NCBI GenBank assembly: GCA_028716665.1
Contig: JAQUPP010000001.1
Coordinates: 282,860-346,859, forward strand
DNA from: Patescibacteria group bacterium
GTDB lineage: Bacteria > Patescibacteriota > Patescibacteriia > UBA2591 > JAQUPP01
Length of the DNA: 64,000 bases
Direction: 5' to 3'
In this document: one piece after another, positions 1 through 54,032 of the stretch
Position numbering within the stretch: the stretch's first letter is position 1
How the letters are laid out: the number at the start of each line of letters is the position of its first letter
Translations under genes and position numbers: made by a program
The notes under the pieces: model-generated
Database searches by the model: none
The model's input: the letters and a program-made list of their open reading frames with translations, nothing else
What the model was told of the DNA's origin: nothing

Positions 1-828
1 AGTGTTCTAGCCGGACTTCAAGCATCTGAGCTGATTATTTTGGCCGCCAGACCTTCTATCGGAAAAAGCGCCTTGGCTCTTGATATTGCCAGACGCGCGG
101 CCGTTTATCATAAAATTCCGGTGGGAATTTTCAGTTTTGAAATGTCAAAAGATCAAATTTGCGACAGAATAATTTGCGCTCAAGCAGGGGTTAATCTTTG
201 GAAAATCAGAACAGGAAATATTGCCAAAGACGGCGACGGAGATTTTAAAAAATTGGGAGAAGCTTTCAGTGTTTTGGCTGAAACGCCTATTTTTATTGAT
301 GATTCGCCAACCGCGAGCGTGAATGAAATCAGAACAAAAGCCAGAAGATTGCAATCAGAACACGGACTCGGTTTATTGATTATAGATTATTTACAATTAA
401 TGGAAGGCGCCAGCGGTACTGAAAATCGTGTTCAAGAAGTTTCAGAAATTTCTCGAGCGCTTAAAGCTATTGCCCGTGAACTTAATATTCCGGTCTTGGC
501 TCTTTCTCAGCTTTCCCGCGCCACGGAAGCGAGAACTCCGGCTATTCCCAAATTGGCTGACTTAAGAGAAAGCGGCAGTTTGGAACAAGACGCTGACGTG
601 GTTCTCTTTATTTATCGGAAAGCAATGGATAAAAGCATTAAATTTTGTCCGCCTGAAGAAAAAAATGTTGCGGAAATTCATATTGGCAAACATCGTCACG
701 GCCCGGCCGGAGGAATTGTTAAATTATATTTTGAAGCGGAAACAGCCAGTTATAAAAATTTAGACAAAAAAATGTTAGATAATTTGGAAGGAGATAGCAG
801 TGATATTGAAGAATCAGGGCCATTCTAA
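1..828 (+). CDS. dnaB: Replicative DNA helicase DnaB, C-terminal RecA-like domain (5' end lies outside the window)
   Basis: In-frame from base 1; Walker A 'GKSALALD'; DnaB motifs 'LLIIDYLQLM' and 'SQLSR...ESGSLEQDADVVLFIYR'; TAA stop at 826-828. Confidence 0.9.
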   Translation, partial: SVLAGLQASELIILAARPSIGKSALALDIARRAAVYHKIPVGIFSFEMSKDQICDRIICAQAGVNLWKIRTGNIAKDGDGDFKKLGEAFSVLAETPIFIDDSPTASVNEIRTKARRLQSEHGLGLLIIDYLQLMEGASGTENRVQEVSEISRALKAIARELNIPVLALSQLSRATEARTPAIPKLADLRESGSLEQDADVVLFIYRKAMDKSIKFCPPEEKNVAEIHIGKHRHGPAGGIVKLYFEAETASYKNLDKKMLDNLEGDSSDIEESGPF

Positions 829-6069: not shown

Positions 6070-6152
6070 GGGTGGGTAGCAAAGTAGTCAAATGCGGCAG
6101 ACTGTAAATCTGCTGGCTTCGGTCTTCGTAGGTGCAAATCCTACCCCACCCA
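6070..6152 (+). tRNA. tRNA-Tyr (anticodon GTA), long variable arm
   Basis: Acceptor gggtggg/cccaccc; anticodon arm gcaga-ctGTAaa-tctgc; class-II variable arm; T-arm gtagg-tgcaaat-cctac. Confidence 0.85.
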
Positions 6153-6156
6153 CTTT

Positions 6157-6227
6157 GCCGTCCTAGCTCAACTCCGACGTTTTAGAGTCGGAGTCCCGAC
6201 CTCCAATGGAGCGTCGGGATGGACAGG
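6157..6227 (+). pseudogene. tRNA-like remnant: the first 15 nt of tRNA-Thr(TGT), 'gccgtcctagctcaa', fused to a ~56-bp double-hairpin repeat element
   Basis: 18-nt direct repeat 'tttgccgtcctagctcaa' (6154-6171 and 6250-6267); hairpins ctccgac..gtcggag and tcccgac..gtcggga; the 3' 'ggacagg' is a degenerate acceptor strand. Confidence 0.6.
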
Positions 6228-6252
6228 AAATTTATTATGATTTAAATTTTTT

Positions 6253-6324
6253 GCCGTCCTAGCTCAATGGTAGAGCAACAGTTTTGTAAACTGTAGGTTC
6301 TCGGTCCGATCCCGAGGGACGGCT
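6253..6324 (+). tRNA. tRNA-Thr (anticodon TGT)
   Basis: Acceptor gccgtcc/ggacggc; anticodon arm acagt-ttTGTaa-actgt; T-arm ctcgg-tccgatc-ccgag. Confidence 0.85.
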
Positions 6325-32645: not shown

Positions 32646-32703
32646 AGATGGAATCTAGAATATGGAATTTAGAATTTAGAATAAAAAACAAAAAATTTAA
32701 AAT

Positions 32704-33762: not shown

Positions 33763-33821
33763 AATTTGGAATTTAGAATATAGAATTTAGAAAAAATAAA
33801 AATAAGAAAATAACATAAAAT

Positions 33822-38752: not shown

Positions 38753-38780
38753 AATAATTAATAATCTAATTATAAAATAT

Positions 38781-39398
38781 ATGAACAAAAAAATTATTTG
38801 GATAATTATAATTGTCGTGGTGATTATTGGCGCAGTTATCGTTATTTTAAATCTTCCCAAAAAATCAACTATTCCTGCCACAGGCCAGGGAGAAAAAACA
38901 ACTCCCGTGGTAGTTCCTGAAGGAACTGTAGCCGCCCCGGAATTAAATCTTTCGCAAATTGTAGAACCGAAAGCGATTGTGCCTGGTGCCAGTCCGGTTA
39001 CCGGAGAAGGAAAAATTTTAACTGATGAAGGAAAAATAGCCAGTCCGGAGGGCGTTGCCCCGGGGGCGAAAGAAACCCCAAAACCATCCGCGCCGATTGA
39101 AGAAAATAAAATTCCTAAATCAGCTTTGACGATAAAAGTGAGCGCTCAAAATGGTTATGAACCTTCTCAATTTCGGGCCAAGGCCGGCCAAGTAGTAACT
39201 CTTTGCTTAGTGGGACTTGATGATAAATCGCATAGTCTTAATTTTCGTCATCCGAGTTTAAGCGGGCTGGTGATTACTATTATTGGAACAGAAACAAGAT
39301 GTCTTACCTTTAATGCGCCGATCGCGGGAACTTATGAATTTGCTTGCAGCAATCCGGATCATTCCAAGGAAGTTGGCCAAATGTTTATTACAGAGTAA
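38781..39398 (+). CDS. Membrane-anchored azurin-like cupredoxin (type-1 copper protein)
   Basis: N-terminal TM, Pro/Glu/Thr-rich linker, copper ligands His ('DKSHSLNF'), Cys/His ('FACSNPDH'), Met ('GQMF'); compare azurin C-x-x-P-G-H. Confidence 0.7.
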   Translation: MNKKIIWIIIIVVVIIGAVIVILNLPKKSTIPATGQGEKTTPVVVPEGTVAAPELNLSQIVEPKAIVPGASPVTGEGKILTDEGKIASPEGVAPGAKETPKPSAPIEENKIPKSALTIKVSAQNGYEPSQFRAKAGQVVTLCLVGLDDKSHSLNFRHPSLSGLVITIIGTETRCLTFNAPIAGTYEFACSNPDHSKEVGQMFITE

Positions 39399-39418
39399 CT
39401 TTAAAGGGTTTTGCCCTT

Positions 39419-41194
39419 ATGATTAAAAAAAATAGTAAAAAATTTAGAATAAAACATTTTTTACTATTTTTTATTTTTATAATTTTAGTTTTGCTTGCGA
39501 TAATTTTGCTTGCCAAAAACGCTCAAGCGCCGGGATTTTTTTATAATACTGAACCGCAGCCGGAAACAAAATCTAACCCTGAGCCTGTCAAAGGGACTAA
39601 CTCTGAGCCCGTCGAAGGGGCGAAAAATTCTCTTTCCGAATATTCTTCGGCCACTTTTAGTGATTCATTCTCGGGCCAGGCTTGGTTGGATACAACTCGG
39701 ACCAATTTATATTTTGATTGGACCAGCCAAAATCTTATTTTCCCGCCGGTTTTAGATACTGAAGAAGTTTCGGCCGGTGATTTTTTAATTAATTTTATTC
39801 CGGAAAAAATCAGTTCTGAAGGTGATTTTGCTCTGTTTGTCGGCACTCACCGCATCAGTCAGAAAAAACAATTGTTGATTTGGCAGATTAAAGAAAATCA
39901 CTGGTCAAAATTTGATGTTTCGACTTTGCTCAACATCAACCCTGAGTCTGCCGAACGGGTTGACTTTTCAACTTTAGGTCTTAGTGATACCGCGTCAATT
40001 CTCGGTTTGGAAAAAATTACTTCATCTTCAAATTGGCTGCTTTTCAGCCAAGACCCTTCAACCAACACTTCGGCCGTGAGCTCAGTGCCAAACGGCTCAG
40101 GGCAAGCCAACAATCTTAAAATTGATATTTTAAAAATTACGGATTCAGAAACAGATCATCCACGGATTGAATTAATAGCTGAAAAATCATGGCCGATTTC
40201 ATCTTTTAAAGATATTCAAATAGAATGCGGCGAAAAAAATTGTTTAATTGCCATCAGCGAGCCGTTAACTATTTTTAAAGTTGACACTAATGGCAGTTTA
40301 ACGACTTTAGAAAATTTGACAAAATCTTTAAAAGAAAATAATCCTGATCAAGTGGTTATTTCTAAGGGATTATCAGCGGAAAATTGGCTGGTGGTTCTAT
40401 CTAAGAAAATTCCGCGTCAGTCCGCGTCAAGTCCGTCTGAGTCCGCGCCTTTGTATCAATATGAGATTAATGAAATTAAAAATGAAACTCTAAATAACAA
40501 AGGTATCACTTTTACGGCCGAATATCCGGGCCGGCCGTCACTTTTAATTTTAAAAAATAAAAACATTTTTCTTTTTTGGGGAAGTTATTTTACTCAGGCC
40601 TATGAAATTACTCCTCAAAATAAACTGATTGATTTATCCGGCGATTTTGGTTGGCGAATTTCAGCCAATAAGCCGTTTCATCTTTATCAACTTTCTCATT
40701 CAATTTACATAAAAAATGAAGACCGTTCCATTATTCGCTGGGGAGGCGGAACCAATGTCAGAATTGATCCGAAATTTTGGTTTACTTTTAATCCCGATTT
40801 TTTAAAAATTATTCCTTATCCTCAAAATCAAGATTCAGGCTATCTTATTGCCGGGGTACCGTCAGGCGGAACAAAAATTTATCAATTTAACGATTTGGGT
40901 TTTGATTTATCCAAACCTCGCCAAATCGTTTCCGCTAAAATTAATTTTTCCGTAACTGAAATTAAAGCGGCTCAAATCACCAATTTACAAGGCAAAATAG
41001 ACAGCGCTCAAACAGAATATTGGCTTTCAAATGATGGCGGAAAAAATTGGGAAAAAGCGGAAATAGGCAAGCCGGTTATTTTTAAGACAGTTGGCAATGA
41101 CCTTCGCTATAAAATTATTTTAACGCCAAATTCCAATGATTCTTATACTGTCCCGGTTTTAAACTCAATCTATCTTTGGTATTGGTATAAATAG
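39419..41194 (+). CDS. Hypothetical membrane-anchored extracellular protein (592 aa)
   Basis: N-terminal TM followed by a large non-repetitive domain; no recognisable motif. Confidence 0.4.
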   Translation: MIKKNSKKFRIKHFLLFFIFIILVLLAIILLAKNAQAPGFFYNTEPQPETKSNPEPVKGTNSEPVEGAKNSLSEYSSATFSDSFSGQAWLDTTRTNLYFDWTSQNLIFPPVLDTEEVSAGDFLINFIPEKISSEGDFALFVGTHRISQKKQLLIWQIKENHWSKFDVSTLLNINPESAERVDFSTLGLSDTASILGLEKITSSSNWLLFSQDPSTNTSAVSSVPNGSGQANNLKIDILKITDSETDHPRIELIAEKSWPISSFKDIQIECGEKNCLIAISEPLTIFKVDTNGSLTTLENLTKSLKENNPDQVVISKGLSAENWLVVLSKKIPRQSASSPSESAPLYQYEINEIKNETLNNKGITFTAEYPGRPSLLILKNKNIFLFWGSYFTQAYEITPQNKLIDLSGDFGWRISANKPFHLYQLSHSIYIKNEDRSIIRWGGGTNVRIDPKFWFTFNPDFLKIIPYPQNQDSGYLIAGVPSGGTKIYQFNDLGFDLSKPRQIVSAKINFSVTEIKAAQITNLQGKIDSAQTEYWLSNDGGKNWEKAEIGKPVIFKTVGNDLRYKIILTPNSNDSYTVPVLNSIYLWYWYK

Positions 41195-41227
41195 AATTTT
41201 CTGATAATTTAAAATTGAAAAATCAAA

Positions 41228-41599
41228 ATGGAAAATGACAATGTAAATTTTAAAAATGAATTCAAAAAACGCCTTTATAACTGGGTTTTAAGATTAATCA
41301 AGTTTATAGACAAGCTTCCCAAAGACTCCGTATGTAATGTCTTGGGAAAACAGCTTCTAAGAAGTGGAACAAGCATTTTGGCAAATTATATTGAGGCAAA
41401 CTCAGCCAGCTCAAAGAAAGATTTTATTAATTTTTTCACTCATTCTTTAAAATCAGCCAATGAATCTAAGGTTTGGCTGACATTATTAAGAGATACTGAC
41501 AAAGGAGATAAAAATGAATTGCAGTGGTCATTAAAAGAACTGATAGAAATAGCCAATATTCTGGCTTCCAGCATTTTAACTCTCAAGGGTAAGAAATAA
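41228..41599 (+). CDS. Four-helix-bundle protein (PF05635 / TIGR02436, '23S rRNA IVS' / Avd-like)
   Basis: 'LRSGTSILANYIEANSASSKKDFINFF' family signature; 123 aa. Confidence 0.7.
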   Translation: MENDNVNFKNEFKKRLYNWVLRLIKFIDKLPKDSVCNVLGKQLLRSGTSILANYIEANSASSKKDFINFFTHSLKSANESKVWLTLLRDTDKGDKNELQWSLKELIEIANILASSILTLKGKK

Positions 41600-41673
41600 T
41601 TTTGACATTTTGAATTGTAATTTTAATTTTTGATATTTACATTTTGCATTTTTTAATTATCCACTTTATATTA

Positions 41674-41702
41674 TTGACCCACCCATAAAAAGGGGATACA
41701 AT
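41674..41702 (+). promoter_or_regulatory. Sigma70-type promoter (TTGACC-N17-TACAAT) for the giant fibre gene
   Basis: Read directly from the sequence. Confidence 0.45.
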
Positions 41703-41751
41703 ATAAGAGTAAAGTTAGTATTTTTAAGTATAAAATTGATTGTTTAAATAT

Positions 41752-44700
41752 ATGAAAAAACAAATATTTTCTTCAAAAATTATTTATTTTTCGATTTTTT
41801 TAATTTTAATTTGTTTTTCTTATTGGGGAGTAGAAAAAGTAAGGGCAGCTGATCCGCTGGACAATGATCAGATTGATATGCTGAAATATTTAGACATGAA
41901 TGAGCACGGGATTTTTAATTTAGCTACTCCGGTAGATGATGATAACGCCGCGACACAAGGATATGTTAAATCAGTAGTTTTAACAAATACTGGTTGGACG
42001 GCTACTGACAGCTATATTTATTTAACTACTATTGGTAATAGCGTCGGTATTGGAACAACAATTCCGGTCGCAAAATTGGAAGTTGCCAATAATTATAGCA
42101 GCACGGCAACGCTACCTTCGGCTAATATTGGTATAGTTGGGCGTAATTATACAGGTTCCGGCGCTGATGTTATTGGTGTCTATGGACAAGGAAAAACCAA
42201 TGACGCTTCTTATAACAGTTATGGCGGTTATTTTTATGGCACTTATAGCAGTAATAGAAATAAAGCGATTGGTATTTATGCTTATGGAAATGATTATGCG
42301 GCTATTTTGGATGGTACTGTCGGAATCGGATCATCAATACCGGCTACAAAATTAGATGTTAATGGCAATATTGCGGCGAATACCTATTATTCTCGTGGTG
42401 ATCCAATCGGTTATTTTCTTAATCCTGCCGCAGGTGGTACGGGTTGGGGATTATATTCCAATGGTTCTGTATATGCTTCTGGAAGTGATGATAATTATTT
42501 TGCCGGAAGCGTCGGAATTGGAATAACAAATCCGGGAGCAAAACTTTCAATCGTAACACCGGATACCAATTATTCAACAATATGGTCTAATAACGGTGGT
42601 GCAAATAATGAATATCTTTCTTTATATCAAACTGTTGATGATTTTATATTTACTTCCAATAAAAATGGTTCAGGAGTTCGTAAGGGTATAGGAATTACTG
42701 CCACAGGTGCGGATAATACCATGCCTAGTGGAATATATTTAAAAACAGACGGTTATGTCGGAATAGGAACAACAATTCCGGGTTTTAATCTTGATGTTTA
42801 TGGTTCAGGGGTTGTGGCATCGCAAATTGTAAGCACTAATAATTATTCAGCTCAATATATTAAAGGTGGTCAGAGCGGAGATGTACGCTGGGGATTATTT
42901 AGCGGATATCCGAATGTGGGAGATTTTACAATCAGAGAGACAGGAGTTGCTGATTATTTGACAGTCAAAAAAACTACCGGCAATGTCGGTATTGGGACGA
43001 CGATTCCAGGCATGGTATTAACAGTTAATACGAGTACTAATGATCAAGGTATTCAAATTCAAGGAGCAGCATCAAATATTAGTCCTGTACTTAAATTCGC
43101 AACTTCGGCAGGTACTGCTTATGCTCGTATTGGTATTGCGGGTGCAGCTGGTAATTTAGCTACAAACAGTGGTCAAAATGATTTAGTTATTAGAACAGAA
43201 GGTACTCAAAAACTTCATCTTGCTCCAGGAGCCGTTATTACTGAAACTTTGCTTTCTACTGGTTATGTCGGCATTGGAACAACAATCCCATCAACAAATC
43301 TTGATGTTAATGGCCAAATAAAAATCAGAGGAGGGGTACCTGGCGCTGGTAAAATTTTAATTTCGGATGCAGTTGGTTTAGCTACTTGGTCTCCTGCCAC
43401 TTCTATCAGCGATGGCGACTGGACAATTTCCGGCAATAATCAATATTCTGCTGTTTCCGGCAACGTCGGTATTGGGACAACGGATCCGACGGCAATTTTA
43501 CAAATTAATAAATCCACTGGCGGTAGTGGACAAAAATGGTTGATTCTTTCTACGACTGGAGCTTCCAGTGAAGGAATGGTTTTTAGAACTGACAATGGTG
43601 ATATTAATCGTATCACGTCTTATGGTGATTTGTATTTAGAATCCAATAATGGTTCAGGTGCTACTTTAGGACTTGATAGTGGTGGTCATTCTAGTTTTGG
43701 AGGTTATGTTTATGCACCCAGTTTGACTGTAGGTGGACTGGACATTACCCCACCGACAGAGGGAGCTATTATTTCCGGCAATGTCGGTATCGGGGTGACG
43801 GATCCAGTTAGTAAATTAGCAATTTTATCCGGAGCGGGTGTTGGCGGAATTTCAATCGGCACTGATGAAACTTATGCTGCTGTAGCTGCTCCCGACGGCG
43901 GAGCAATAATTGAAGGCAATGTCGGTATCGGTTATACAACTGCTTCTATAGATAAATTAAGAGTTAATGGTTCTATTATGTCTACGGGTCCTGCTGGTGG
44001 GAGTCCGTTGCTTACATCGGCTATTAGAATGTCAGTGGAAGGATCCGGAGCTTATGGACAAGTTCAAACTTATAATTCTGTGCCCTTAGTGTTAAACCCC
44101 ACAACTGCGGGCGGTAATGTCGGTATTGGCGTGACAAATCCGGGTAATAAATTAAGTGTTTATGGAGGCACAATAGGTGCTTATAATTTTGACGGAACCG
44201 ATGGTCTATTAATTGAAGGATATAGCGCTTCAGCTAGCGATGATGCAATGATGCAATTTCATACTTCGGGAGCGCTTTATAAAATGGGAATAGATTATTC
44301 TGATGAAGGAAAATTTAAGCTTACTTATGGTAGTGAAGATAATGGACAGACACAAATTGTAATGACTGGCTCCGGTAAGGTTGGAATTGGATTAGCAAAT
44401 CATACTCCGTTATCCAAACTGGACGTGTCGGGTAATATGGCTATTGGTTCTTATGCCGGGGCTAGCGCCGCACCTTCAAATAGTTTAATAGTTAGTGGCA
44501 ATATTGGTATTGGAACAACAGCACCGGGAATAGATTTAGCTATTGGCGATACTGATACCGGTTTAGATTGGGCGAGTGATGGTAATTTAAAAGTAATGAC
44601 TAATAATTCAGAAAGAATAAGAATCGCTTCAGATGGTAAGGTTGGAATTGGAACAACCGGGCCGGTAAATCCACTTCATATTTATTCGTCATCATCTTCT

Positions 44701-45963
44701 GTAATTCCATTGAGAGTTGACGATTATTATTATACTTATTCAATAGGAGCTGGAACTTTTTCATCGCCCAATACAAATGGATGGCAATTATACAAAGCAA
44801 GCTCGGAAACTTATTATGACAGCGTAGTGGGTGGGCATCATTTTTTGACCTCAGGATCTGAAAAAGTTACATTTACGAGTGATGGTAAGCTTGGAATCGG
44901 AACAGCTACGCCAGCAACATATTTAGACATCAAAGGAACACAAGTTGCCGGAAGCTACGGAGATGCCGCAACAGCGATAAAGATTAATATGACAAATGAT
45001 GCTTCATCAATCTATGGTGGAATTGCATGGAAGGACAGCGAAACAGCGGCCGAGACTTGCGGGATTTATCCTATGCGTTCGGGCGGAGTGAATTATTTCG
45101 ATTTTTTAAATACAGGTACAGTTTATATGAGGTTATTAGGCGGAACAGGAACAATCTTGAATGACAACAGCGCTGACTTGGATTTTCGCGTAGAAAGCAA
45201 TGATAACGCAAATATGTTTTTTGTTGATGGTGGGGCAAATACAGTAACAGTAGGATATAACGGATCACTTGGTTCTAAATTTAATGTTTATTCGGCGACA
45301 AATAACACAACACAATTTACCGGTCATCTATTGAATGTCAGAGCAGGAGATGGAACCACTAATACAATTAGTGAAATTGATTTCGGAGTAGCCAATACAG
45401 TAGCACCAGTTATTATCGGAAGTAAAGTTATAGACGGTTCCGGTGCTACAAAGGGAGATTTTTATATCGGGACAAGAGATTCGACAGATGGAGCAACGCT
45501 TCCAACAGAAAGATTAAGAGTAACAACCGCTGGCAAAGTCGGTATCGGGATAACAAATCCGGGACAAGCATTGGATGTTACTGGAACTATTCGCCAATCA
45601 GCTTGTAAAACAGCCGGTACTCTTTCCGCAAATACTTCAGGTGATATTATTTGTACATCTGATGAGCGATTGAAAAATATTTATGGATATTATCAAGGCG
45701 GACTTGCCGCGCTTTCCGCAATTAATCCGATAAAATTTTCTTATAAAGGAGAAGATTTCGTTCATGTGGGATTCTCGGCGCAGAATGTAAAAAGTGTTTT
45801 ACCTGAAGCCAGCGCCTTGCAGGATAGCGGTTATTGGAGCTTGGACGATACATCAATTACGGCATTAACTGTAAATGCCATCAAAGAACAACAAAAAGAA
45901 ATCGAAGATTTGAAAAATGTTGTCTGTCAATTAAAACCCGATGCAGATGTCTGCAATAAGTAA
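41752..45963 (+). CDS. Giant tail-fibre-like surface protein (about 1400 aa) with a C-terminal peptidase-S74 intramolecular-chaperone (autoproteolytic) domain
   Basis: Signal peptide; N-terminal 'IFNLATPVDDDNAATQGYVKS' tail-fibre-like motif; many GNVGIGTT repeats; C-terminal 'CTSDERLKNIYGY...HVGFSAQNVKSVLPEAS...ITALTVNAIKEQQKEIEDLKN' matches the endosialidase-chaperone domain. Confidence 0.75.
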   Translation: MKKQIFSSKIIYFSIFLILICFSYWGVEKVRAADPLDNDQIDMLKYLDMNEHGIFNLATPVDDDNAATQGYVKSVVLTNTGWTATDSYIYLTTIGNSVGIGTTIPVAKLEVANNYSSTATLPSANIGIVGRNYTGSGADVIGVYGQGKTNDASYNSYGGYFYGTYSSNRNKAIGIYAYGNDYAAILDGTVGIGSSIPATKLDVNGNIAANTYYSRGDPIGYFLNPAAGGTGWGLYSNGSVYASGSDDNYFAGSVGIGITNPGAKLSIVTPDTNYSTIWSNNGGANNEYLSLYQTVDDFIFTSNKNGSGVRKGIGITATGADNTMPSGIYLKTDGYVGIGTTIPGFNLDVYGSGVVASQIVSTNNYSAQYIKGGQSGDVRWGLFSGYPNVGDFTIRETGVADYLTVKKTTGNVGIGTTIPGMVLTVNTSTNDQGIQIQGAASNISPVLKFATSAGTAYARIGIAGAAGNLATNSGQNDLVIRTEGTQKLHLAPGAVITETLLSTGYVGIGTTIPSTNLDVNGQIKIRGGVPGAGKILISDAVGLATWSPATSISDGDWTISGNNQYSAVSGNVGIGTTDPTAILQINKSTGGSGQKWLILSTTGASSEGMVFRTDNGDINRITSYGDLYLESNNGSGATLGLDSGGHSSFGGYVYAPSLTVGGLDITPPTEGAIISGNVGIGVTDPVSKLAILSGAGVGGISIGTDETYAAVAAPDGGAIIEGNVGIGYTTASIDKLRVNGSIMSTGPAGGSPLLTSAIRMSVEGSGAYGQVQTYNSVPLVLNPTTAGGNVGIGVTNPGNKLSVYGGTIGAYNFDGTDGLLIEGYSASASDDAMMQFHTSGALYKMGIDYSDEGKFKLTYGSEDNGQTQIVMTGSGKVGIGLANHTPLSKLDVSGNMAIGSYAGASAAPSNSLIVSGNIGIGTTAPGIDLAIGDTDTGLDWASDGNLKVMTNNSERIRIASDGKVGIGTTGPVNPLHIYSSSSSVIPLRVDDYYYTYSIGAGTFSSPNTNGWQLYKASSETYYDSVVGGHHFLTSGSEKVTFTSDGKLGIGTATPATYLDIKGTQVAGSYGDAATAIKINMTNDASSIYGGIAWKDSETAAETCGIYPMRSGGVNYFDFLNTGTVYMRLLGGTGTILNDNSADLDFRVESNDNANMFFVDGGANTVTVGYNGSLGSKFNVYSATNNTTQFTGHLLNVRAGDGTTNTISEIDFGVANTVAPVIIGSKVIDGSGATKGDFYIGTRDSTDGATLPTERLRVTTAGKVGIGITNPGQALDVTGTIRQSACKTAGTLSANTSGDIICTSDERLKNIYGYYQGGLAALSAINPIKFSYKGEDFVHVGFSAQNVKSVLPEASALQDSGYWSLDDTSITALTVNAIKEQQKEIEDLKNVVCQLKPDADVCNK

Positions 45964-46054
45964 TCTATTGATTATTAAAGAATTAACGAGTTATGAAAAT
46001 AAAGAACATAAGCTAATTTCTAATTTTCAATTTCTAATTTCTATTGAATTTTAA

Positions 46055-46433
46055 ATGAATCAATTTTCAAACCCGAAAAACAAGGAATATAATTTAGAAG
46101 AAAGAACAGCCAAATTCAGCGAAGACATAATAGAATTCATAAGAAGCATTAAGAGAGACGATATTAATCGTAATATTATTACTCAATTAGCGCGTGCCAT
46201 AACTTCAATCGGCGCTAATTATTGCGAAGCTAATGCTTCCAGCTCAAAAAAGGATTTTCGCAATAAAATATATATTTGCAAAAAAAGAGGCCAATGAAGC
46301 AAAATATTGGTTAAGGATATTGGCTAAATATCATCCTGAATTGAAAGAAAAAATAAGAATTTTTTGGCAAGAAGCCCATGAATTTCATCTGATTTTTCAG
46401 AAAATTACCAACACCCTGGATAAAAAAGTTTAA
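46055..46433 (+). pseudogene. Four-helix-bundle (PF05635) gene disrupted by a frameshift in an A7 run near 46270 (two overlapping ORFs, 46055-46297 and 46233-46433)
   Basis: 'ITSIGANYCEANASSSKKDFRNK' continues in the +1 frame as 'IYIAKKEANEAKYWLRIL...'; paralogue of the 41228 gene. Confidence 0.6.
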
Positions 46434-46537
46434 AAATTAAAGAATTGAAAATTTAATAAAAATTAAAAATTAGAAATTGAAAATTAATTAAGTATTTATA
46501 ATCCGTTAATTTATAAATTAATAATCTAATTAAAGTT

Positions 46538-47140
46538 ATGAACAAAAAAACAATTTTGACAATCGTCATTATCGTGATACTCGTGGTGGTTGGTATTATT
46601 CTCGTGAAGAATATGCCTGCGCAAAAAACCATTAAAACAACCGTGCCAAAAGAAACGGTTACGCCAGGGACAACTCCAAATGTTGAAACCCCGATCGCTC
46701 CGGTTGAAGGAGCCAAACAAGCCGCGCCTGGGACAAGTTTTGTCACCAAGGAAGGCGAAGTTGTTACTCCGGAAGGAACGCCGGTTAAGCAAGATGCTTT
46801 GCCTGGTGCGCCTGAAGCGCCGAAACAATCAAAATCTTTAACTGAAACAGAAATTCCCGCCGGTTCAGTTCAATTAAACGTAACTGCCAGCGGTTTTACT
46901 CCGAATGAATTTTCCGTCAAAGCCGGTCAAGTTGTCACTTTAACCGTTACTGCCGGTGATGAGAAAACTCACGTTTTTAAATTTGATGACGCCAGTTTAT
47001 CCGCCGTGGCAATCGGTATTGCCGGACACGAAACTCGGGCGATTACTTTTAAAGCACCAGCCAAGGGAGATTATTCTTTCTTTTGTGATGTTCCGGGTCA
47101 TTCCCAGAGAGGCGAGAAAGGCGTGATGCATGTTAAATAG
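46538..47140 (+). CDS. Membrane-anchored azurin-like cupredoxin, paralogue of the 38781 gene
   Basis: 'EKTHVFKF', 'FFCDVPGH', 'GVMHV' ligands; N-terminal TM; conserved 5' region 'attaataatctaatta..atgaacaaaaaaa' shared with 38760-38790. Confidence 0.7.
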   Translation: MNKKTILTIVIIVILVVVGIILVKNMPAQKTIKTTVPKETVTPGTTPNVETPIAPVEGAKQAAPGTSFVTKEGEVVTPEGTPVKQDALPGAPEAPKQSKSLTETEIPAGSVQLNVTASGFTPNEFSVKAGQVVTLTVTAGDEKTHVFKFDDASLSAVAIGIAGHETRAITFKAPAKGDYSFFCDVPGHSQRGEKGVMHVK

Positions 47141-47221
47141 ATTAACGAGTTAACGGATTAATGAATTAAAGAATTTATAACTCGTTAATACGTTAATTCA
47201 TAATTAACAATTTAATTAAAA

Positions 47222-47262
47222 TAGAGGATGAGCTTTTTTAAGCCACATCCTCTATTTAATTT
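47222..47262 (+). terminator. Rho-independent terminator
   Basis: tagaggatg...catcctcta stem followed by TTTAATTT. Confidence 0.6.
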
Positions 47263-47312
47263 GAATTAATTTAAAATCCCTCCACTTGATATTTTGAAGC
47301 GGAGGGATTGTT

Positions 47313-49001
47313 TTAATTTACAAGTTTTACAAATTTCAAACTTTTCTTTCCGATTTTCAGGAAATAAATTCCTGAATTAATCGTTTTCCCTAACTCATCT
47401 TCGCCATCCCAAACTGATTCTTTCGGCGATAATTTTTTGACAACCCTTCCGGATATGTCATAGATAGTCGCTTCCGATTCTGAACCCATATTTACAATAT
47501 GCAGTTCTTTTTGGAATGGGTTTGGCCAAACGGAGAAATCTGTGGTTATCTGAATTTTTTCTTCCGTTTCTGCGATGCCGATAATTTCTTCATCCGATGT
47601 CCAGCTAAAATTGTCTAAACAAAAACAATTTTGCGGTATGGGAAATTGTCCCCTGAATTCAACTGTGACGATAGTATCCATTCTTGGAGTAAAAAATTCT
47701 CCTTTTTTGCCCGTATATCGGAAAGTTTTTCCTTTGTTATCAGAAATTACAATCGTATCTCCATCTGCCAAATCAAGATAATTGAAATGAAATCTTGTGC
47801 CCTTGATTCCGCCATTTGAGAAACAATAATGTTTTTCTTTAATCGTGTCATTGATAGTAGGATTCCAATATGGATGATAATAATCATCCGACCGACCAAA
47901 GTACCAATAATATGGGAAATTATTAGTTTTCAGATACTCGTCCCAATTGGTATTTACACTGGATGAAAGCCCATTATAAGTCGTATCGTAATTTCTAGCT
48001 GTCTGCGGGAAATAAATACCAATTACTTCTTGAAGTTTTTGTGAGGCTGGATCATAAACAATCATCTCATCAATATCTTTGACGATGTTATTAGCTATTG
48101 CTCTGATTGAAACAGAAAGTAATGGATCATCGCGAAGTTTTATAGCAAAACTTCCCAATCTTGTTCTTTCGTTAATATATCCTACGTCGTTAATTAGAAT
48201 TTCATCATCGATAATTTGTTGTTTAACACTATCTGATTCTGTTTTTAGAATCAATGCTAAACTGTTAATATCCTGAGTTAATTGATCTATTCCCGAAGTT
48301 TTGATTGCCGAGAATCCATCTGTCTTAGCAAGCGCTACGGCCAAACTTTCTTGACACCAAGATGGATTTTCAAGCAGTCTAATGAAATAAGTCAATCTCT
48401 GGGGGGCATTAGCAGTTGTCCAGCAACCTACTGTCAAATCTACGAGACTTAATAATTCTTGTTGAACTTCCCACTGCTGCATCTGACAGGCCATTAATCC
48501 GAGAATATTGATGTTTTGACCGATTGCTTGTTTTACTCCCGTAATCGCTGTTTTAAATCTTTTATTGGGAATACTCATCCAATCAAAAGGATTTTTATCC
48601 TGAATGATACCATGCCAATTACAGCCATGGCCGTAGAGTATTAGGGCATATTTAGATGTGGTACCCATTTTTTGAATCGCCGCTTGCGAAAATTTTATCA
48701 GTTCGTTTTCATCAGCCATATTAATTTCAGAATCAATAATTTCTTCTACTGATGAATCCCCAAATAAATAATATCTTCGAGTTGGTATGCTGTCGTCAAA
48801 AGCATCTATTTCTATGGCGACATTTACTGGATAAGATTTACCCACGAAATCCATATTACTAATTATGGATTTACAATATTTTTCAGTAATTTCTTGTAAA
48901 TTACCATCCCCACAGATATAGAAAAGCATTGTCCAATCTGCTGTTGCTTTTGGTGTAAAGTTAGAAACTTGTAATAAAATTGTAAAGAACAGGTTAAACA
49001 T
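47313..49001 (-). CDS. Secreted clostripain-like (C11, clan CD) cysteine peptidase with a T9SS-type C-terminal sorting domain
   Basis: 'WTMLFYICGDGNLQ' C11 N-terminal motif; catalytic His 'LILYGHGCNWHG' and Cys 'LGLMACQMQ'; C-terminal 'WPNPFQKELHIVNMG..ATIYDISGRVVKKL....GIYFLKIGKKSLKFVKLV' resembles the Por_Secre_tail domain; SD 'aagggggat'. Confidence 0.7.
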   Translation of the reverse strand: MFNLFFTILLQVSNFTPKATADWTMLFYICGDGNLQEITEKYCKSIISNMDFVGKSYPVNVAIEIDAFDDSIPTRRYYLFGDSSVEEIIDSEINMADENELIKFSQAAIQKMGTTSKYALILYGHGCNWHGIIQDKNPFDWMSIPNKRFKTAITGVKQAIGQNINILGLMACQMQQWEVQQELLSLVDLTVGCWTTANAPQRLTYFIRLLENPSWCQESLAVALAKTDGFSAIKTSGIDQLTQDINSLALILKTESDSVKQQIIDDEILINDVGYINERTRLGSFAIKLRDDPLLSVSIRAIANNIVKDIDEMIVYDPASQKLQEVIGIYFPQTARNYDTTYNGLSSSVNTNWDEYLKTNNFPYYWYFGRSDDYYHPYWNPTINDTIKEKHYCFSNGGIKGTRFHFNYLDLADGDTIVISDNKGKTFRYTGKKGEFFTPRMDTIVTVEFRGQFPIPQNCFCLDNFSWTSDEEIIGIAETEEKIQITTDFSVWPNPFQKELHIVNMGSESEATIYDISGRVVKKLSPKESVWDGEDELGKTINSGIYFLKIGKKSLKFVKLVN

Positions 49002-49131
49002 TTTATCCCCCTTTGTTTGAAAATGACCCTTTTTCGAGTCATTTATTGCCAAGCGAGCGAGGGAAAAGAAAATTTATTTTCTTTTCCGAGCGAGCGCTGG
49101 CAACACAGGGTCTAGTACCCTTTATAAATTA

Positions 49132-49160
49132 ATCTTAGCATAAAATTTTGATTTTGTCAA
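49132..49160 (-). promoter_or_regulatory. Conserved-family promoter on the minus strand (TTGACA-N17-TAAGAT) driving the C11 peptidase gene
   Basis: Reverse-complement of 49155-49160 is TTGACA; spacer 'aaatcaaaattttatgc'. Confidence 0.5.
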
Positions 49161-49213
49161 TCCCTTAAAAGATCGACAATAAAGCCTTTTCAGGGTTAAA
49201 AAGAAAAAGGGGG

Positions 49214-49242
49214 CTGACAAAACCATTAAAATATGCTTAAAT
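49214..49242 (+). promoter_or_regulatory. Conserved-family promoter (CTGACA-N17-TTAAAT), divergent from the previous one
   Basis: 'gggggctgacaaaaccattaaaatatgcttaaatga'. Confidence 0.5.
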
Positions 49243-49285
49243 GATAATAGTTGAACTAATAAGATTTATTATTTATAAAAATATT

Positions 49286-51343
49286 ATGCGCAATAAAATG
49301 AAGTCCGCCAAAGCCCTTGGCAAAAGTGGAAAAAAATTAATTTTATCTTCAAAACTTATTTATTTTCTGGTTTTTTTATTTGTTATTTGTTTGGGAATAG
49401 AAAGAGCGGGAGCAACCGTGCCGAGTCAATATATTATTTCCGACAAAGCGATAAAAATGGGAAATACCACGCCCTTGAAAATTTTTAATTTAGGCACTCC
49501 GGAAGAATCCACGGATGCCACGACAAAACAATATGTTGATTCAATTGCCACGGGCACGGGCGCGATTGGTCTTTGGATGTCCAATGGTGTTGATATTTAT
49601 AATAATAATTCCGGCAACGTCGGTATCGGATCAACAATACCTTCTGCCAAACTGGATGTTGCGGGAGATATTCGTTCAAAAGGAATTTCAAGTTTTCTCA
49701 TAAATACTCAGAATGAGGGTATTGCAATTTTATATCCCGAAACTGCCAATACATATACCCGAATCGGTCCGACCGGTTTTTCTCCAAGTCTTGCAAGCGG
49801 CGCAGATGATTTGGCAATTGTTGGTAAATTGGAAGTAGCGGGAATAGGTTATTTTAACTATAATGTCGGTATCGGAACAACCGGACCAACGCATCATTTG
49901 GAAGTTATTGAGAGAAATGATGGATATGGAGATTGGAGTCATGGTGTTTTGCCTTTTCAACCGGCGGGTGTTTTTATTCAAGCCAGCAATGTTAATTCAG
50001 CCGGTCTTTATGGCGAAGGTTATACTCGAGGTGTTTGGGGAGTGGCGCGAGCCAATGGAGGAAGTGGCTATGGTATTTTGGGAGAAATGGGAAGCGGAGA
50101 ATGCTCTTGGCCTCTTGATGATGCAACGGGTGGCGCTATTGTTGGTGTGACTAATTGTTCATCAGGTAATTCTGGGGTAGCAATAAGGGCAACTGTATTA
50201 ACCGGTGTTGAAGGGTATGGCATTTATTCTCAAGGAAATTTAAGTAAAAATTATTTTGAAGGCAATGTCGGTCTTGGATCGACAACACCGGCCGCTGATT
50301 TGGATATTAACGGTAATGCTCAATTGAATATTCTTTATGATCGCGTTAATTCAAATTATCATCTTGATCTTGGCGCAAATACATTTACCAGTTCTTTGAC
50401 TGTTGCCGGTAATATTGGTATTGGCGTGACGAATCCCGGATATAAATTAAGTATGGCTGACACTGGCAGTTATATTGGGGCGAGTTTTAAATTTGGCGGA
50501 TCTTATGTTCCGGTAAATATAGTTGGCGGTACAAATGTGGGAGCCTATTGGCGTGAAAATTTTATTGGTTCAAATATTGATTTAGATACGACTACTGGAA
50601 AACCCAAAACCAGTGTAAATGGTTATCGAGGAGGAGCGATCGGATTTGCTCCCGATCCCGGGCAAGGACAAATTCATTTTTTTACCAATGCGGGTTCTAC
50701 TGCCGGAACGGTCTTGTCTGAAAGAATGGTTATAGACAGCGCGGGTAATGTCGGTATTGGAATGGCGCCTTCGTACATACTTGATGTTACGGGCGGTCAT
50801 GGAGCAAAAGTCGCAAGATTTACGGGAGGCACCAGCGGAGATAAAAGTTTGTATATGTATGCGGATAGTGGCGGCTCCGGCATAACTGATGCGGATACTT
50901 ACAAAGAATTAATTTATCTTAAGCCGGCGGATAATTCTATAAATTTTTACAATAATGGCAGCGGCCCGAACGTGACGATAAATGCTACCGGCAAAGTCGG
51001 TATCGGAACAACCGCGCCGAATTCCACTCTTCATGTTAATGGTTCTTTCACGAGAGCAATAGTAACCAAAACTTCAACTTATACGGCAACCGCTTCGGAC
51101 GATATTATATTATGTGATGCATCCGGAGGAGGTTTTGTAATTACTCTTCCCACCGCAGTGGGTATTGCCGGAAGAGAATATACGATAAAAAAAATAGACA
51201 GTTCAGCAAATCAGTGCGGTTATACCACGACATCAGGTCAGACAATAGATGGAGTTGCGCTGACTTATCAATTAGGCACTCAATGGCAGACAAGAACAAT
51301 GGTTTCAGATGGAACGAATTGGATAAGATTGTCAAATATTTAA
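49286..51343 (+). CDS. Large tail-fibre-like surface protein (~685 aa) with GNVGIGTT repeats
   Basis: Signal/TM; 'IFNLGTPEESTDATTKQYVDS' tail-fibre-like N-terminal motif; repeats; the ORF-track start at 49241 overlaps its own promoter. Confidence 0.65.
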   Translation: MRNKMKSAKALGKSGKKLILSSKLIYFLVFLFVICLGIERAGATVPSQYIISDKAIKMGNTTPLKIFNLGTPEESTDATTKQYVDSIATGTGAIGLWMSNGVDIYNNNSGNVGIGSTIPSAKLDVAGDIRSKGISSFLINTQNEGIAILYPETANTYTRIGPTGFSPSLASGADDLAIVGKLEVAGIGYFNYNVGIGTTGPTHHLEVIERNDGYGDWSHGVLPFQPAGVFIQASNVNSAGLYGEGYTRGVWGVARANGGSGYGILGEMGSGECSWPLDDATGGAIVGVTNCSSGNSGVAIRATVLTGVEGYGIYSQGNLSKNYFEGNVGLGSTTPAADLDINGNAQLNILYDRVNSNYHLDLGANTFTSSLTVAGNIGIGVTNPGYKLSMADTGSYIGASFKFGGSYVPVNIVGGTNVGAYWRENFIGSNIDLDTTTGKPKTSVNGYRGGAIGFAPDPGQGQIHFFTNAGSTAGTVLSERMVIDSAGNVGIGMAPSYILDVTGGHGAKVARFTGGTSGDKSLYMYADSGGSGITDADTYKELIYLKPADNSINFYNNGSGPNVTINATGKVGIGTTAPNSTLHVNGSFTRAIVTKTSTYTATASDDIILCDASGGGFVITLPTAVGIAGREYTIKKIDSSANQCGYTTTSGQTIDGVALTYQLGTQWQTRTMVSDGTNWIRLSNI

Positions 51344-53438: not shown

Positions 53439-54032
53439 CTAATTGTATAAACTCATGGTTTTTTCTATTCCTTGTTCCAGAGCCGCAGAGATTGCTTCAA
53501 CAGTTGATTCTTCTGTTTGTTTGAGAAGTTTTTTTTCGCCGACAGAGAAATTTTTTAAAACTAAATCCATAGCTTTCTCCGACGCTTTGGTCGGAGTCCC
53601 GACCCCTTGGCGTCGGGATTGATTTTGAGCGGAGTGATTAATGCCGATTCTGAATCTGACGAAATTTTTCGTTTTTAAATTATCAATAATTGACTGAACG
53701 CCATTATGACCGGCAGACGAGCGATTTATGGAAATCCGAATTTTTCCCAATGGCAAATCCATATCATCATGAATAACCCACAGATTGGAATTTGGAATTT
53801 GGAATTTAGAATTTAGAATTTTAACCGCCAGTCCGGATTCGTTCATAAATGTGGTTGGAATAACCAAACAAACTTCGCCTTTTTTTGAGATTTCAGCTTT
53901 AAAATTTTTGTTCAATTTGAAAGTTGGAAAATCAAAAGTTTTGGCAAAATCCATTACTATTTTTTGCCCGATATTATGGCGGGTATTTTTATATTGTTCG
54001 CCCGGATTTCCCAGACCGATAATAAAAATCAT
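53439..54032 (-). CDS. pth: Peptidyl-tRNA hydrolase carrying an in-frame ~14-aa repeat-element insertion
   Basis: 'IIGLGNPGEQYKNTRHNIG', 'PTTFMNESG', 'HDDMDLPLGKIR', 'GHNGVQSI', 'RFRIGI'; insertion 'SAQNQSRRQGVGTPTKAS' encoded by the double-hairpin element (53577-53620); heptamer tandem (5 units) at 53786-53823. Confidence 0.85.
   Translation of the reverse strand: MIFIIGLGNPGEQYKNTRHNIGQKIVMDFAKTFDFPTFKLNKNFKAEISKKGEVCLVIPTTFMNESGLAVKILNSKFQIPNSNLWVIHDDMDLPLGKIRISINRSSAGHNGVQSIIDNLKTKNFVRFRIGINHSAQNQSRRQGVGTPTKASEKAMDLVLKNFSVGEKKLLKQTEESTVEAISAALEQGIEKTMSLYN

What the first reader, a model, noticed from the sequence alone, without database searches (positions are those of the whole stretch)
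53577..53620. Essential gene pth carries an in-frame insertion of the double-hairpin element (the RPE-like phenomenon)
Aligning the Pth translation to canonical Pth, the segment between the conserved 'RIGI(G/N)H' and 'VLxxF' contains about 23 aa where E. coli has 9. The extra 'SAQNQSRRQGVGTPTKAS' is encoded exactly by the ctccgacg..tcggagtcccgac..cgtcggga element (minus-strand reading). The frame is preserved. This is analogous to Rickettsia palindromic elements that insert in-frame into protein-coding genes. By contrast, the heptamer patch in the same gene ('NSKFQIPNSN') replaces an equal-length native segment ('SFFRINPDE' in E. coli) rather than adding residues.
Basis: partly seen in the sequence, partly recalled or inferred. 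Interest (0 to 1): 0.55.

Follow-up and report, generated by a model that had tools for sequence, protein, structure and literature searches.

The report
Mobile double-hairpin inserted in-frame in pth
The peptidyl-tRNA hydrolase gene of this ultra-small (CPR/Patescibacteria) bacterium carries a 42-base, GC-rich double-hairpin repeat that adds 14 amino acids to a flexible surface loop, and it is one copy of an apparently undescribed element found across the whole CPR inside housekeeping genes, the RNase P RNA gene and tRNA-like sequences.

Summary
Window 53577-53618 is a 42-nt double hairpin (CTCCGAC..GTCGGAG + TCCCGAC..GTCGGGA, 69% GC in a 35% GC window). It forms codons 139-152 (SRRQGVGTPTKASE), in phase, of a 197-aa Pth (PF01195). 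A second copy lies at 6172-6219. Syntenic relatives lack it: two have nothing there, two keep only a decayed single hairpin, and an outgroup has a normal-length loop. The AF2 model puts the insert in the low-confidence lid loop.

The RPE-like reading is supported and is much broader than stated. A pattern scan found at least 120 copies, almost all in Patescibacteria. Copies inside open frames are multiples of 3 in 33 of 42 cases, against 13 of 38 non-coding copies. Hosts include DnaK, PNPase, UvrB, DnaG, DnaX, GAPDH and S16. Five to six copies sit in the RNase P RNA gene exactly where P13/P14 belong, while four unselected related rnpB genes show a clean empty site with no target duplication.

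I conclude it is a selfish mobile hairpin element that is translated and tolerated. The mobilising enzyme is unknown: a RAYT/Y1-transposase link was tested and not supported. No Rfam family or paper matched.

The parts
53577..53618 (-). The double-hairpin element inside pth. It is 42 nt and forms codons 139-152 (SRRQGVGTPTKASE) of Pth. GC content is 69%, against 34% for the rest of the gene.
   Evidence: 61.6 bits; RNA -26.6 kcal/mol, z -4.5; DNA -14.5 kcal/mol, z -4.7
53577..53596 (.). Hairpin B: CTCCGAC-GCTTTG-GTCGGAG on the + strand, with a 7-bp stem. A mutated orthologous remnant survives in pth of L001 (tCCGACCAGAGCGTCaaag) and L002 (tCaGACCAGAGCGTCGaaa).
53597..53618 (.). Hairpin A: TCCCGAC-CCCTTGGC-GTCGGGA on the + strand, with a 7-bp stem. 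It is present only in the window lineage among the five pth genes compared.
53439..54032 (-). pth gene, 197 aa. The residues at the family's invariant or near-invariant alignment positions (N9, H19, N64, D89, H109) are intact.
6172..6219 (+). Second copy of the element in the window (59 bits). It is inserted in the D-loop of a truncated duplicate of the 5' part of tRNA-Thr(tgt), just upstream of the intact tRNA-Thr at 6253-6324.
53785..53821 (-). Heptamer (GGAATTT/AGAATTT) tandem patch inside the same pth gene, encoding KILNSKFQIPNSN. It belongs to a different dispersed repeat family that also occurs at about 6 other sites in the window.

Best explanation
The extra 14 residues of Pth are the translation of one copy of a short, GC-rich, non-autonomous mobile DNA element made of two adjacent 7-bp-stem hairpins. 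Its consensus is (t)(a)(g)CTCCGAC-G-[variable stem-loop]-GTCGGAG TCCCGAC-[variable stem-loop]-C-GTCGGGA. The element is spread through the Candidate Phyla Radiation.

Shown:
- The element is repeated. There are 2 copies in the window and at least 120 elsewhere.
- It is present or absent at orthologous sites, in pth and in rnpB.
- At the cleanest empty-versus-filled site (rnpB) it leaves no target-site duplication.
- Its conserved stems contain no stop codon in any of the six frames.
- Copies inside genes preserve the frame and are used in all six frames and both orientations.
- In Pth it lies in the flexible lid loop, with the conserved active-site positions unchanged.

Inferred:
- Insertions occur more or less anywhere, and selection removes those that break frames or hit structured cores. 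What survives are in-frame copies in surface loops, copies between genes, and copies at tolerant positions of RNA genes.
- The pth copy is transcribed and translated as part of the protein and is neutral or nearly so.
- The insertion predates the split from L001/L002, where it has lost one hairpin and is decaying, and from L003/L004, where it is gone. In the window lineage it was either kept perfect by intrastrand correction or renewed by conversion from another copy.

Not known:
- The enzyme that moves it. My preferred guess is a trans-acting single-strand hairpin-specific (HUH/Y1-type) transposase, or hairpin-driven template switching during replication. This step has no direct support.
For: Repeat status: for the window.

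Flank and bulge conservation beyond the searched pattern: C 99% and T 88% before the core, G 95% and A 85% after it, bulged G in 111 of 123 copies and bulged C in 113 of 123.

Compensatory changes in the variable extension pairs: CG 61 / UA 16 / AU 6 at one pair and CG 48 / UA 26 / AU 11 / UG 9 at the other, with 95% of cells paired against 26-51% when the partner is slid.

Orthologous absence in pth.

Orthologous absence in rnpB: filled sites read GTGAAACGG[TCCCGAC..GTCGGAG]CTAAAT in L023, L025, L041, L089 and L118. Empty sites read GTGAAACGGCTAAAT in L134, L208, L209 and L212, which were fetched without reference to the element.

Frame preservation: 33 of 42 in-ORF copies are multiples of 3, against 13 of 38 non-coding copies (Fisher p = 9e-5). 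No frame-breaking copy was found.

Hosts: DnaK, PNPase, UvrB, RecG, DNA ligase, DnaX, CCA-adding enzyme, GatA, S16, RNase J-like, aaRS, GAPDH, ParB, DnaG, SpoU.

Signs of recent spread: three identical copies in one Taylorbacteria genome, plus tandem and nested copies.

Loop location. The lid loop is a length hot spot in CPR Pth, ranging from 11 to 48 residues.

Both orientations are about equally frequent in genes (33 versus 35), which argues against a strand-specific RNA function.
Against: - No mobilising gene was found. The Y1_Tnp/RAYT-like genes of CPR are not flanked by the element (1 perfect plus 1 weak copy in 80 loci, 397 kb), and none lies in the window.
- Copy number looks low: 2 per 64 kb here and about 2 per 458 kb of unselected CPR contigs. 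The stem sequence is the same across very distant CPR classes. This profile is unusual for a purely selfish repeat and could instead point to a function, or to a conserved host process that generates it.
- The pth history needs either two events or maintenance of a perfect palindrome over about 11% nucleotide divergence.
- Translation of the insert is inferred from frame statistics, not observed.
- The sample of copies was selected for perfect stems, so stem conservation cannot be measured from it.
Confidence: 0.78

Rival explanations
1. The dispersed element is a copy of, or shares origin with, the P13-P14 double-helix module of CPR RNase P RNA. On this view rnpB is the master copy, and the pth insert is a stray piece of the RNase P gene.
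For: - Infernal aligns the two hairpins of the rnpB copies to consensus P13 and P14, directly after the conserved GUGAAA.
- The architecture is the same: two abutting hairpins.
- Five of 6 rnpB copies carry GNRA tetraloops on the second hairpin, as expected for a docking helix.
- The 3' neighbour CUA in rnpB matches the weak flank consensus t-a-g of dispersed copies.
- 6 of 123 copies lie in rnpB, about what one master copy plus about 20 dispersed copies per genome would give.
Against: - All four rnpB genes obtained without selecting for the element lack P13/P14 and show a clean empty site. This includes L208 and L209, whose neighbouring MurJ is 73-74% identical to that of the filled L023.
- The literature says many CPR RNase P RNAs lack P13/P14 (PMC8172020).
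- Native helices should covary between lineages. Here the stems equal the dispersed consensus, although ascertainment bias applies.
Confidence: 0.1
2. The element is a functional site, either a protein-binding or cruciform DNA site or an mRNA hairpin that modulates translation or stability. On this view its presence in pth is selected rather than tolerated.
For: - Identical stems occur across all CPR classes at low copy number.
- The predicted hairpins are strong (z about -4.5).
- The stems in the window copy are perfect, although relatives' copies decayed.
- Compensatory changes occur in the extension pairs.
Against: - Presence at the pth site is not conserved among species about 11% apart.
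- Both orientations and all six frames are used in genes.
- There are identical multi-copy, tandem and nested arrangements typical of repeats.
- Copies sit in unrelated genes with no common theme.
Confidence: 0.08
3. The 42 nt are not part of the mature Pth protein. They are removed from the RNA like a mini-intron, or bypassed by the ribosome as in T4 gene 60 or the mitochondrial 'byp' elements.
For: The element also sits in RNA genes and tRNA-like sequences, where removal would be convenient. GC-rich hairpin inserts that are bypassed are known in a yeast mitochondrion (own knowledge).
Against: - There is a strong excess of multiples of 3 among in-ORF copies, and stops are absent. This constraint would not exist if the insert were removed or skipped.
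- No case was found where excision is needed to restore a gene. The two candidates are simply adjacent genes.
- Excision never restores a tRNA.
Confidence: 0.03
4. The segment is an old lineage-specific loop of Pth, or a local duplication of a pre-existing hairpin, and only resembles a repeat by chance.
For: The lid loop varies from 11 to 48 residues among CPR Pth. L001 and L002 already have one hairpin-like stretch at the site.
Against: - Both hairpins match the family consensus base for base, including the CTCC/TCCC asymmetry and the bulged G and C.
- The outgroup and L003/L004 have no trace of it.
- The chance expectation is about 0.
Confidence: 0.02

Closest known systems
Rickettsia palindromic elements (RPE; Ogata et al. 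2000, from my own knowledge)
   Same: A dispersed palindromic repeat that is found in-frame inside conserved protein-coding genes, adds a peptide in a surface region, is translated, and also occurs in RNA genes and between genes. No transposase is associated.
   Different: RPEs are about 100-150 bp, restricted to Rickettsia, and present in tens to hundreds of copies per genome. This element is about 36-60 nt, is built of two short hairpins with single-base bulges, has few copies per genome, and is shared by a whole superphylum. No sequence relationship was expected or seen; this was not formally tested.
REP / REPIN elements with RAYT (Y1, HUH) transposases
   Same: A short GC-rich imperfect palindrome, paired into a two-hairpin unit. 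It has a CGTC motif at the hairpin foot (compare the CGTC-tagged REPs of PMC3733652). It leaves no target duplication. CPR genomes do encode RAYT-like Y1_Tnp proteins with HUH and YxxxNP motifs.
   Different: REPs are by definition extragenic and usually number in the hundreds. Their RAYT gene is flanked by them. Here many copies are intragenic, copy number is low, and 80 RAYT-like loci are not flanked by the element.
Mobile GC clusters of yeast mitochondrial genomes (own knowledge)
   Same: Short GC-rich hairpin elements in a very AT-rich genome that insert into coding and rRNA genes, sometimes in-frame.
   Different: A different domain of life and a different sequence. Some mitochondrial relatives are bypassed in translation, for which there is evidence against here.
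MITEs such as Correia/NEMIS, and IS200/IS605-derived PATEs
   Same: Non-autonomous small elements with terminal structure. PATEs, like this element, consist of hairpins and make no target duplication.
   Different: MITEs have terminal inverted repeats and target-site duplications, and none is seen here. For PATEs a cognate TnpA and a conserved target tetranucleotide are expected. Only a weak t-a-g preference was seen, and no TnpA was linked.
P13-P14 helices of bacterial type-A RNase P RNA
   Same: Two abutting hairpins at the same position of rnpB. Infernal aligns them as P13/P14.
   Different: Related rnpB genes lack them cleanly. The same sequence also occurs in proteins, tRNA-like fragments and spacers.

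Membership tests
Peptidyl-tRNA hydrolase Pth1 (PF01195), the host gene | Sequence match to the family profile over its whole length | tested here: met
   E=5e-52, profile positions 2-183 of 183. 36 PDB Pth sequences match at E<=1e-18.
Peptidyl-tRNA hydrolase Pth1 (PF01195), the host gene | Pth fold with conserved active-site residues | tested here: met
   AF2 pLDDT 90.5. TM 0.85-0.90 to 7y52, 2pth and 4qt4. N9, H19, N64, D89 and H109 are invariant in the alignments.
RPE-like in-frame palindromic repeats (a behavioural class) | The same nucleotide element is repeated at unrelated loci | tested here: met
RPE-like in-frame palindromic repeats (a behavioural class) | The element lies inside ORFs with the frame preserved and is absent from orthologues | tested here: met
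RPE-like in-frame palindromic repeats (a behavioural class) | The insert is located at the protein surface or in a loop | tested here: met
   Shown for Pth only.
Rickettsia RPE families proper | Sequence homology to RPE-1..8 consensus, length about 100-150 bp, Rickettsia host | tested here: not met
   The length is 42 nt and the host is Patescibacteria. Sequence comparison to RPE consensus was not run.
REP/REPIN-RAYT system | Short imperfect palindromes in doublets | tested here: met
REP/REPIN-RAYT system | Extragenic location and high copy number | tested here: not met
   At least 42 of 123 copies lie inside long open frames. There are 2 copies in 64 kb here and about 2 in 458 kb of unselected CPR DNA.
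REP/REPIN-RAYT system | The cognate RAYT gene is flanked by the repeats | tested here: not met
   Of 80 Y1_Tnp loci, 1 holds a perfect copy and 1 a weak copy. There is no RAYT in the window.
MITE | Target-site duplication flanking the element | tested here: not met
   Empty versus filled rnpB sites show none. Flank matches are no more frequent than in shuffled pairs.
IS200/IS605-type hairpin element (PATE) | No target duplication, hairpins at both ends, insertion next to a fixed tetranucleotide, strand bias relative to replication | tested here: inconclusive
   There is no duplication and the element has two hairpins. The flank is only weakly conserved, t 44% / a 55% / g 59%. There is no orientation bias against GC skew, 67 of 123.
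Any Rfam RNA family | Match to a curated covariance model | tested here: not met
   Only tRNAs were found in the window. Nothing near significance was found at the second copy of the element, 6120-6260. rnpB copies match RF00010 as part of the whole RNase P gene.

The most novel reading that the evidence does not exclude
The double hairpin is a pan-CPR mobile module with a dedicated, still unidentified and CPR-wide mobilisation mechanism that makes no target duplication and has a liking for tRNA D-loops. It is not merely junk. It can be domesticated: it supplies a P13/P14-like pair of helices, with GNRA docking loops, to RNase P RNAs that had lost them, and it supplies loop extensions to housekeeping proteins. 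That would make it a recurrent source of structural novelty in the most reduced bacterial genomes. Alternatively, it originated from RNase P RNA itself.
Probability: 0.2. Interest if true: 0.85.

Novelty: new variant of a known kind. Interest (0 to 1): 0.66.

Why it matters
In-frame 'selfish' palindromes have been a textbook curiosity of Rickettsia. Finding the same behaviour in a different, much shorter element shared by the whole Candidate Phyla Radiation matters for three reasons.

- CPR genomes are among the smallest and most streamlined known, so the result suggests that this route of protein and RNA evolution is general in reduced genomes.
- It gives a concrete, searchable signature: a 49-position covariance model and a simple DNA pattern. 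This can be used to annotate odd insertions in CPR proteins, pseudo-tRNAs and divergent RNase P RNAs. These features currently confuse gene callers and RNA models.
- The clean empty and filled sites in rnpB and pth make the mobility mechanism experimentally addressable.

For Pth itself, the insert lengthens the lid loop that forms one wall of the substrate cleft, so it may also alter enzyme dynamics.

Tried and rejected
- **RAYT/Y1 transposase as mobiliser.** Four of 120 element loci carry a Y1_Tnp gene, two of them within 350 nt. But 80 metagenomic loci of that family (397 kb) contain only one perfect and one weak copy, and there is none in the window. There is no flanking association.
- **Replication-strand bias.** Orientation against GC skew is 67 of 123, and 22 of 34 at strong skew. 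Neither is significant.
- **Target-site duplication.** None was found beyond shuffled expectation, and none at the rnpB empty/filled sites.
- **Intron-like insertion in tRNAs.** Excision at +-4 nt offsets never restores a tRNA by ARAGORN. The tRNA-like hosts are truncated duplicates lying upstream of intact tRNAs.
- **Gene-splitting insertions.** Two cases where excision fuses long ORFs (L083, L116) are just neighbouring genes: a kinase with Tmk, and NusB/Nudix with RNase III.
- **Whole element as a perfect palindrome (REPIN-type long hairpin).** Loop 2 is the reverse complement of loop 1 in only 4 of 123 copies.
- **Phage vector.** There were 0 hits in viral contigs.
- **Known RNA family or published sequence.** None was found.
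- **More copies in the window.** Only a weak single hairpin, TCCCAAC..GTTGGGA at 2745-2771, scoring 9-11 bits.
- **A recurrent neighbouring gene.** All-against-all clustering of ORFs from the 120 loci gave only housekeeping families.

Full report
**What is at the coordinates.**
The minus-strand ORF 53439..54032 encodes a 197-aa protein that is an unambiguous peptidyl-tRNA hydrolase. Pfam PF01195 matches at E=5e-52 over the whole profile. PDB Pth sequences match at E down to 1e-29. The AF2 model (pLDDT 90.5) superposes on solved Pth structures with TM 0.85-0.90.

On the plus strand, 53577-53618 reads CTCCGAC-GCTTTG-GTCGGAG TCCCGAC-CCCTTGGC-GTCGGGA, which is two abutting hairpins with 7-bp stems. 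In the coding sense these 42 nt are exactly codons 139-152, SRRQGVGTPTKASE, in phase 0. The element is 69% G+C. The rest of the gene is 34% and the window 35.5%. As RNA it folds at -26.6 kcal/mol (z = -4.5) and as DNA at -14.5 kcal/mol (z = -4.7).

Between RIGI(G/N)H and VLxxF the window has 24 residues and E. coli has 10. The difference, 14 aa, equals the element. The same gene with the insert is 100% identical in two other assemblies.

**Is it a repeat?**
Yes. A second copy lies at 6172-6219. The two-hairpin core occurs twice in the window against 0.00 expected. CCGAC-N-GTCGG hairpins occur 4 times against 0.04 expected.

Of the 80 titles listed, 70 name CPR/Patescibacteria lineages: Paceibacteria groups, Saccharibacteria, Doudnabacteria, Berkelbacteria, Kaiserbacteria and others. 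Seven are unnamed 'bacterium' and three carry other names.

Bases not fixed by the pattern are also conserved. C (99%) and T (88%) precede the core, and G (95%) and A (85%) follow it. There is an unpaired G after the first CCGAC in 111 of 123 copies and an unpaired C before the last GTCGG in 113 of 123. The interior is variable but stays paired through compensatory changes: CG 61 / UA 16 / AU 6 at one pair and CG 48 / UA 26 / AU 11 / UG 9 at the other.

A covariance model of 96 copies (R1) scores the two window copies at 61.6 and 59 bits. It finds nothing else convincing in the window.

**Is it an insertion in pth?**
Four syntenic relatives (der-pth-small ORF) were fetched, and their pth genes are 89-93% identical in nucleotides outside the indels.
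- L003 and L004 have no trace of the element, and their loop has the family's usual length.
- L001 and L002 lack 27 nt, which is hairpin A plus adjoining bases. They keep a mutated hairpin B: tCCGACCAGAGCGTCaaag and tCaGACCAGAGCGTCGaaa.
- The outgroup L125 (63% aa identity) has an unrelated loop of normal length.

The site was therefore occupied in an ancestor of the window, L001 and L002, and the element is decaying or deleted in the relatives. The window copy is perfect, so it was either maintained or renewed. The small gene gives conflicting phylogenetic signal (9/4/3 informative sites), so the order of events is not resolved.

**Where in the protein?**
In the AF2 model, residues 133-146 are coil with pLDDT below 50 at 136-146. 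They lie between strand 125-132 and helix 147-158. Alignment to S. pyogenes Pth (4qt4) places window N132 at SpPth Gly136. That is the start of the 'lid loop' Gly136-Gly150, one of three loops that form the substrate cleft (PMC4226762).

Among 113 CPR Pth homologues this loop ranges from 11 to 48 residues, with a mode of 14-16. It is a tolerant hot spot. The invariant family residues (N9, H19, N64, D89, H109) are intact.

**Generality of in-frame copies.**
Among the 123 perfect-stem copies, 42 lie in open frames that extend at least 40 codons on both sides. Thirty-three of these have a length that is a multiple of 3. Among clearly non-coding copies the figure is 13 of 38 (Fisher p = 9e-5; binomial p = 2e-9 against one third).

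All six frames and both orientations are used. The conserved stems contain no stop codon in any frame, as the sequence shows directly. The commonest frames give PT..GVG(V/T)PT..VG peptides.

Host proteins identified by Pfam include DnaK, PNPase (twice), UvrB, RecG, ATP-dependent DNA ligase, DnaX, CCA-adding enzyme, GatA-type amidase, ribosomal protein S16, an RNase J-like beta-CASP nuclease, a class II aaRS, GAPDH, ParB, DnaG primase and a SpoU methylase.

No copy was found that breaks a gene. The two cases where excision fuses ORFs are adjacent genes. This is the pattern expected if the insert is translated and selection removes disruptive copies. It argues against RNA-level removal or ribosomal bypass.

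**RNA-gene copies and a clean empty site.**
Six loci share conserved flanks around the element. Rfam shows that in L023, L025, L041 and L089 the element lies inside the RNase P RNA gene (104-161 bits). nhmmer adds L111 and L118. The element sits exactly between GUGAAACGG and CUAAAU, and Infernal aligns the two hairpins to helices P13 and P14.

To remove ascertainment bias I collected rnpB genes without reference to the element. One lay in a transposase locus (L134). Three were fetched through the rnpB-murJ synteny of L023 (L208, L209 and L212; MurJ 65-74% identical). All four read GTGAAACGG|C(T/A)AAAT with nothing in between. Lui et al. 2021 report that many CPR RNase P RNAs lack P13 and P14 (PMC8172020).

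This is an empty-versus-filled orthologous site with the insert delimited to the base (TCCCGAC...GTCGGAG) and no target-site duplication. I read it as insertion into the vacant, structurally tolerant P13/P14 position. Five of six of these copies carry GNRA loops on the second hairpin, which hints at domestication. The reverse idea, that the element derives from native P13/P14, is kept as a rival at about 0.1.

**tRNA association.**
The window's second copy and at least seven other copies sit in the D-loop of a truncated duplicate of the 5' part of a tRNA, 20-60 nt upstream of the intact tRNA. The orientation is always the same (8 of 8, p = 0.008). L060 and L078 show tRNA-like pseudogenes with several inserts. 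Excision never restores a tRNA. I have no mechanism for this layout.

**Mechanism of spread.**
This is unknown. The hairpins, the bulged bases and the lack of duplication recall REP/REPIN and IS200/IS605-type elements moved by HUH Y1 transposases. CPR genomes do encode RAYT-like proteins. However, 80 loci of that family (397 kb) hold only one perfect and one weak copy, and the window has no such gene. Orientation is not tied to GC skew. No phage contig carries the element. No neighbouring gene family recurs. Hairpin-driven template switching during replication would also explain perfect stems, compensatory changes, and nested and tandem copies, but it is untested.

**Comparison with what is known.**
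In behaviour this is the Rickettsia-RPE phenomenon. In anatomy it is closest to REP doublets. It meets neither family's defining features: length and host for RPE; extragenic location, high copy number and a flanked RAYT gene for REP. It lacks the duplications of MITEs. Rfam 15 has no model for it. Full-text searches for the sequence, and for palindromic or in-frame elements in CPR, found nothing.

I therefore rate it a new variant of a known kind. The unusual traits are superphylum-wide sequence constancy at low copy number and the rnpB and tRNA contexts.

**Verdict.**
The pth insert is best explained as a translated, tolerated copy of a CPR-wide mobile double-hairpin element (confidence about 0.78). 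How the element moves remains open.

Noticed in passing
window 6155-6324: The second copy of the element (6172-6219) is embedded in the D-loop of a 17-24-nt duplicate of the 5' end of tRNA-Thr(tgt) (ttgccgtcctagctcaa|element|tgga...). It lies 33 nt upstream of the intact tRNA-Thr at 6253-6324. The same layout, a 5' tRNA fragment plus the element plus a spacer plus the intact tRNA, recurs in L055 (Lys), L101 (Pro), L104 (Met), L059 (Arg) and L123, always in the same orientation.
   Followed up: partly
L023 6082-6122, L025 7058-7098, L041 4069-4109, L089 4242-4283, L111, L118: The element lies inside the RNase P RNA gene exactly at the P13/P14 position, between GUGAAACGG and CUAAAU. Related rnpB genes (L134, L208, L209, L212) have a clean empty site. 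Five of six filled copies have GNRA loops on the second hairpin.
   Followed up: yes
L060 2430-2660; L078 6660-6900: These are tRNA-like pseudogenes riddled with hairpin inserts. L060 has three copies of the element, in the D-loop, the anticodon/variable region and the T-loop. L078 is followed about 250 nt downstream by an intact tRNA-Arg(tct).
   Followed up: partly
window 3067-3100, 3162-3193, 28146-28218, 32651-32682, 33087-33116, 33760-33792, 53785-53821: Dispersed tandem arrays of a heptamer (TCCAAAT / GGAATTT family). The one in pth is coding (KILNSKFQIPNSN). It is also present at the same site in L001 and in the 63%-identical outgroup L125, but absent from L002, L003 and L004.
   Followed up: partly
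window 31542 and 33864; L001 10235 (inside pth); L114 43 and 222; L034, L060, L141: A second palindromic element, TCCGCCAGCTGGCGGA, occurs 8 times in 1.41 Mb of CPR DNA, against about 0.005 expected for the 14-mer. It lies in-frame in the pth of L001 (KFHPPAGGPNS, within the heptamer patch) and in tRNA-like D-loops in L114. Its habits match those of the double hairpin.
   Followed up: partly
Pth homologues P0002-P0120 (alignment A4): The lid loop of CPR Pth proteins is a length hot spot, ranging from 11 to 48 residues. Several long versions look repeat-encoded, for example IKPNSKFKMQNAKLKFKIQNF in six proteins.
   Followed up: no
window 2745-2771: A single hairpin, TCCCAAC-GTTTTGC-GTTGGGA, resembles one arm of the element with a compensatory G:C to A:T change. 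It scores 9-11 bits with model R1. It lies just after a gene built of 75-nt repeats (1847-2620).
   Followed up: no
window 34900-51100: Very large genes carry dozens of copies of a repeat of about 60 nt encoding a GNVGIGTT(T/N)P-type motif (repeat families D1-D7). Relatives have Peptidase_S74 and Por_Secre_tail proteins in the neighbourhood.
   Followed up: no
window 1644, 7667, 51444, 52567 (and inverted at 20611, 49122): A recurrent 39-nt promoter-like box, TTGACAAAA-N-TATGCTAt/aAAT, lies upstream of several genes (repeat family D18, inverted pairs I6 and I7).
   Followed up: no
L057 3325-3650; L025 7058-7999: In two loci the element lies within 350 nt of a RAYT-like Y1_Tnp gene. This did not generalise to 80 further loci of that family.
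   Followed up: yes
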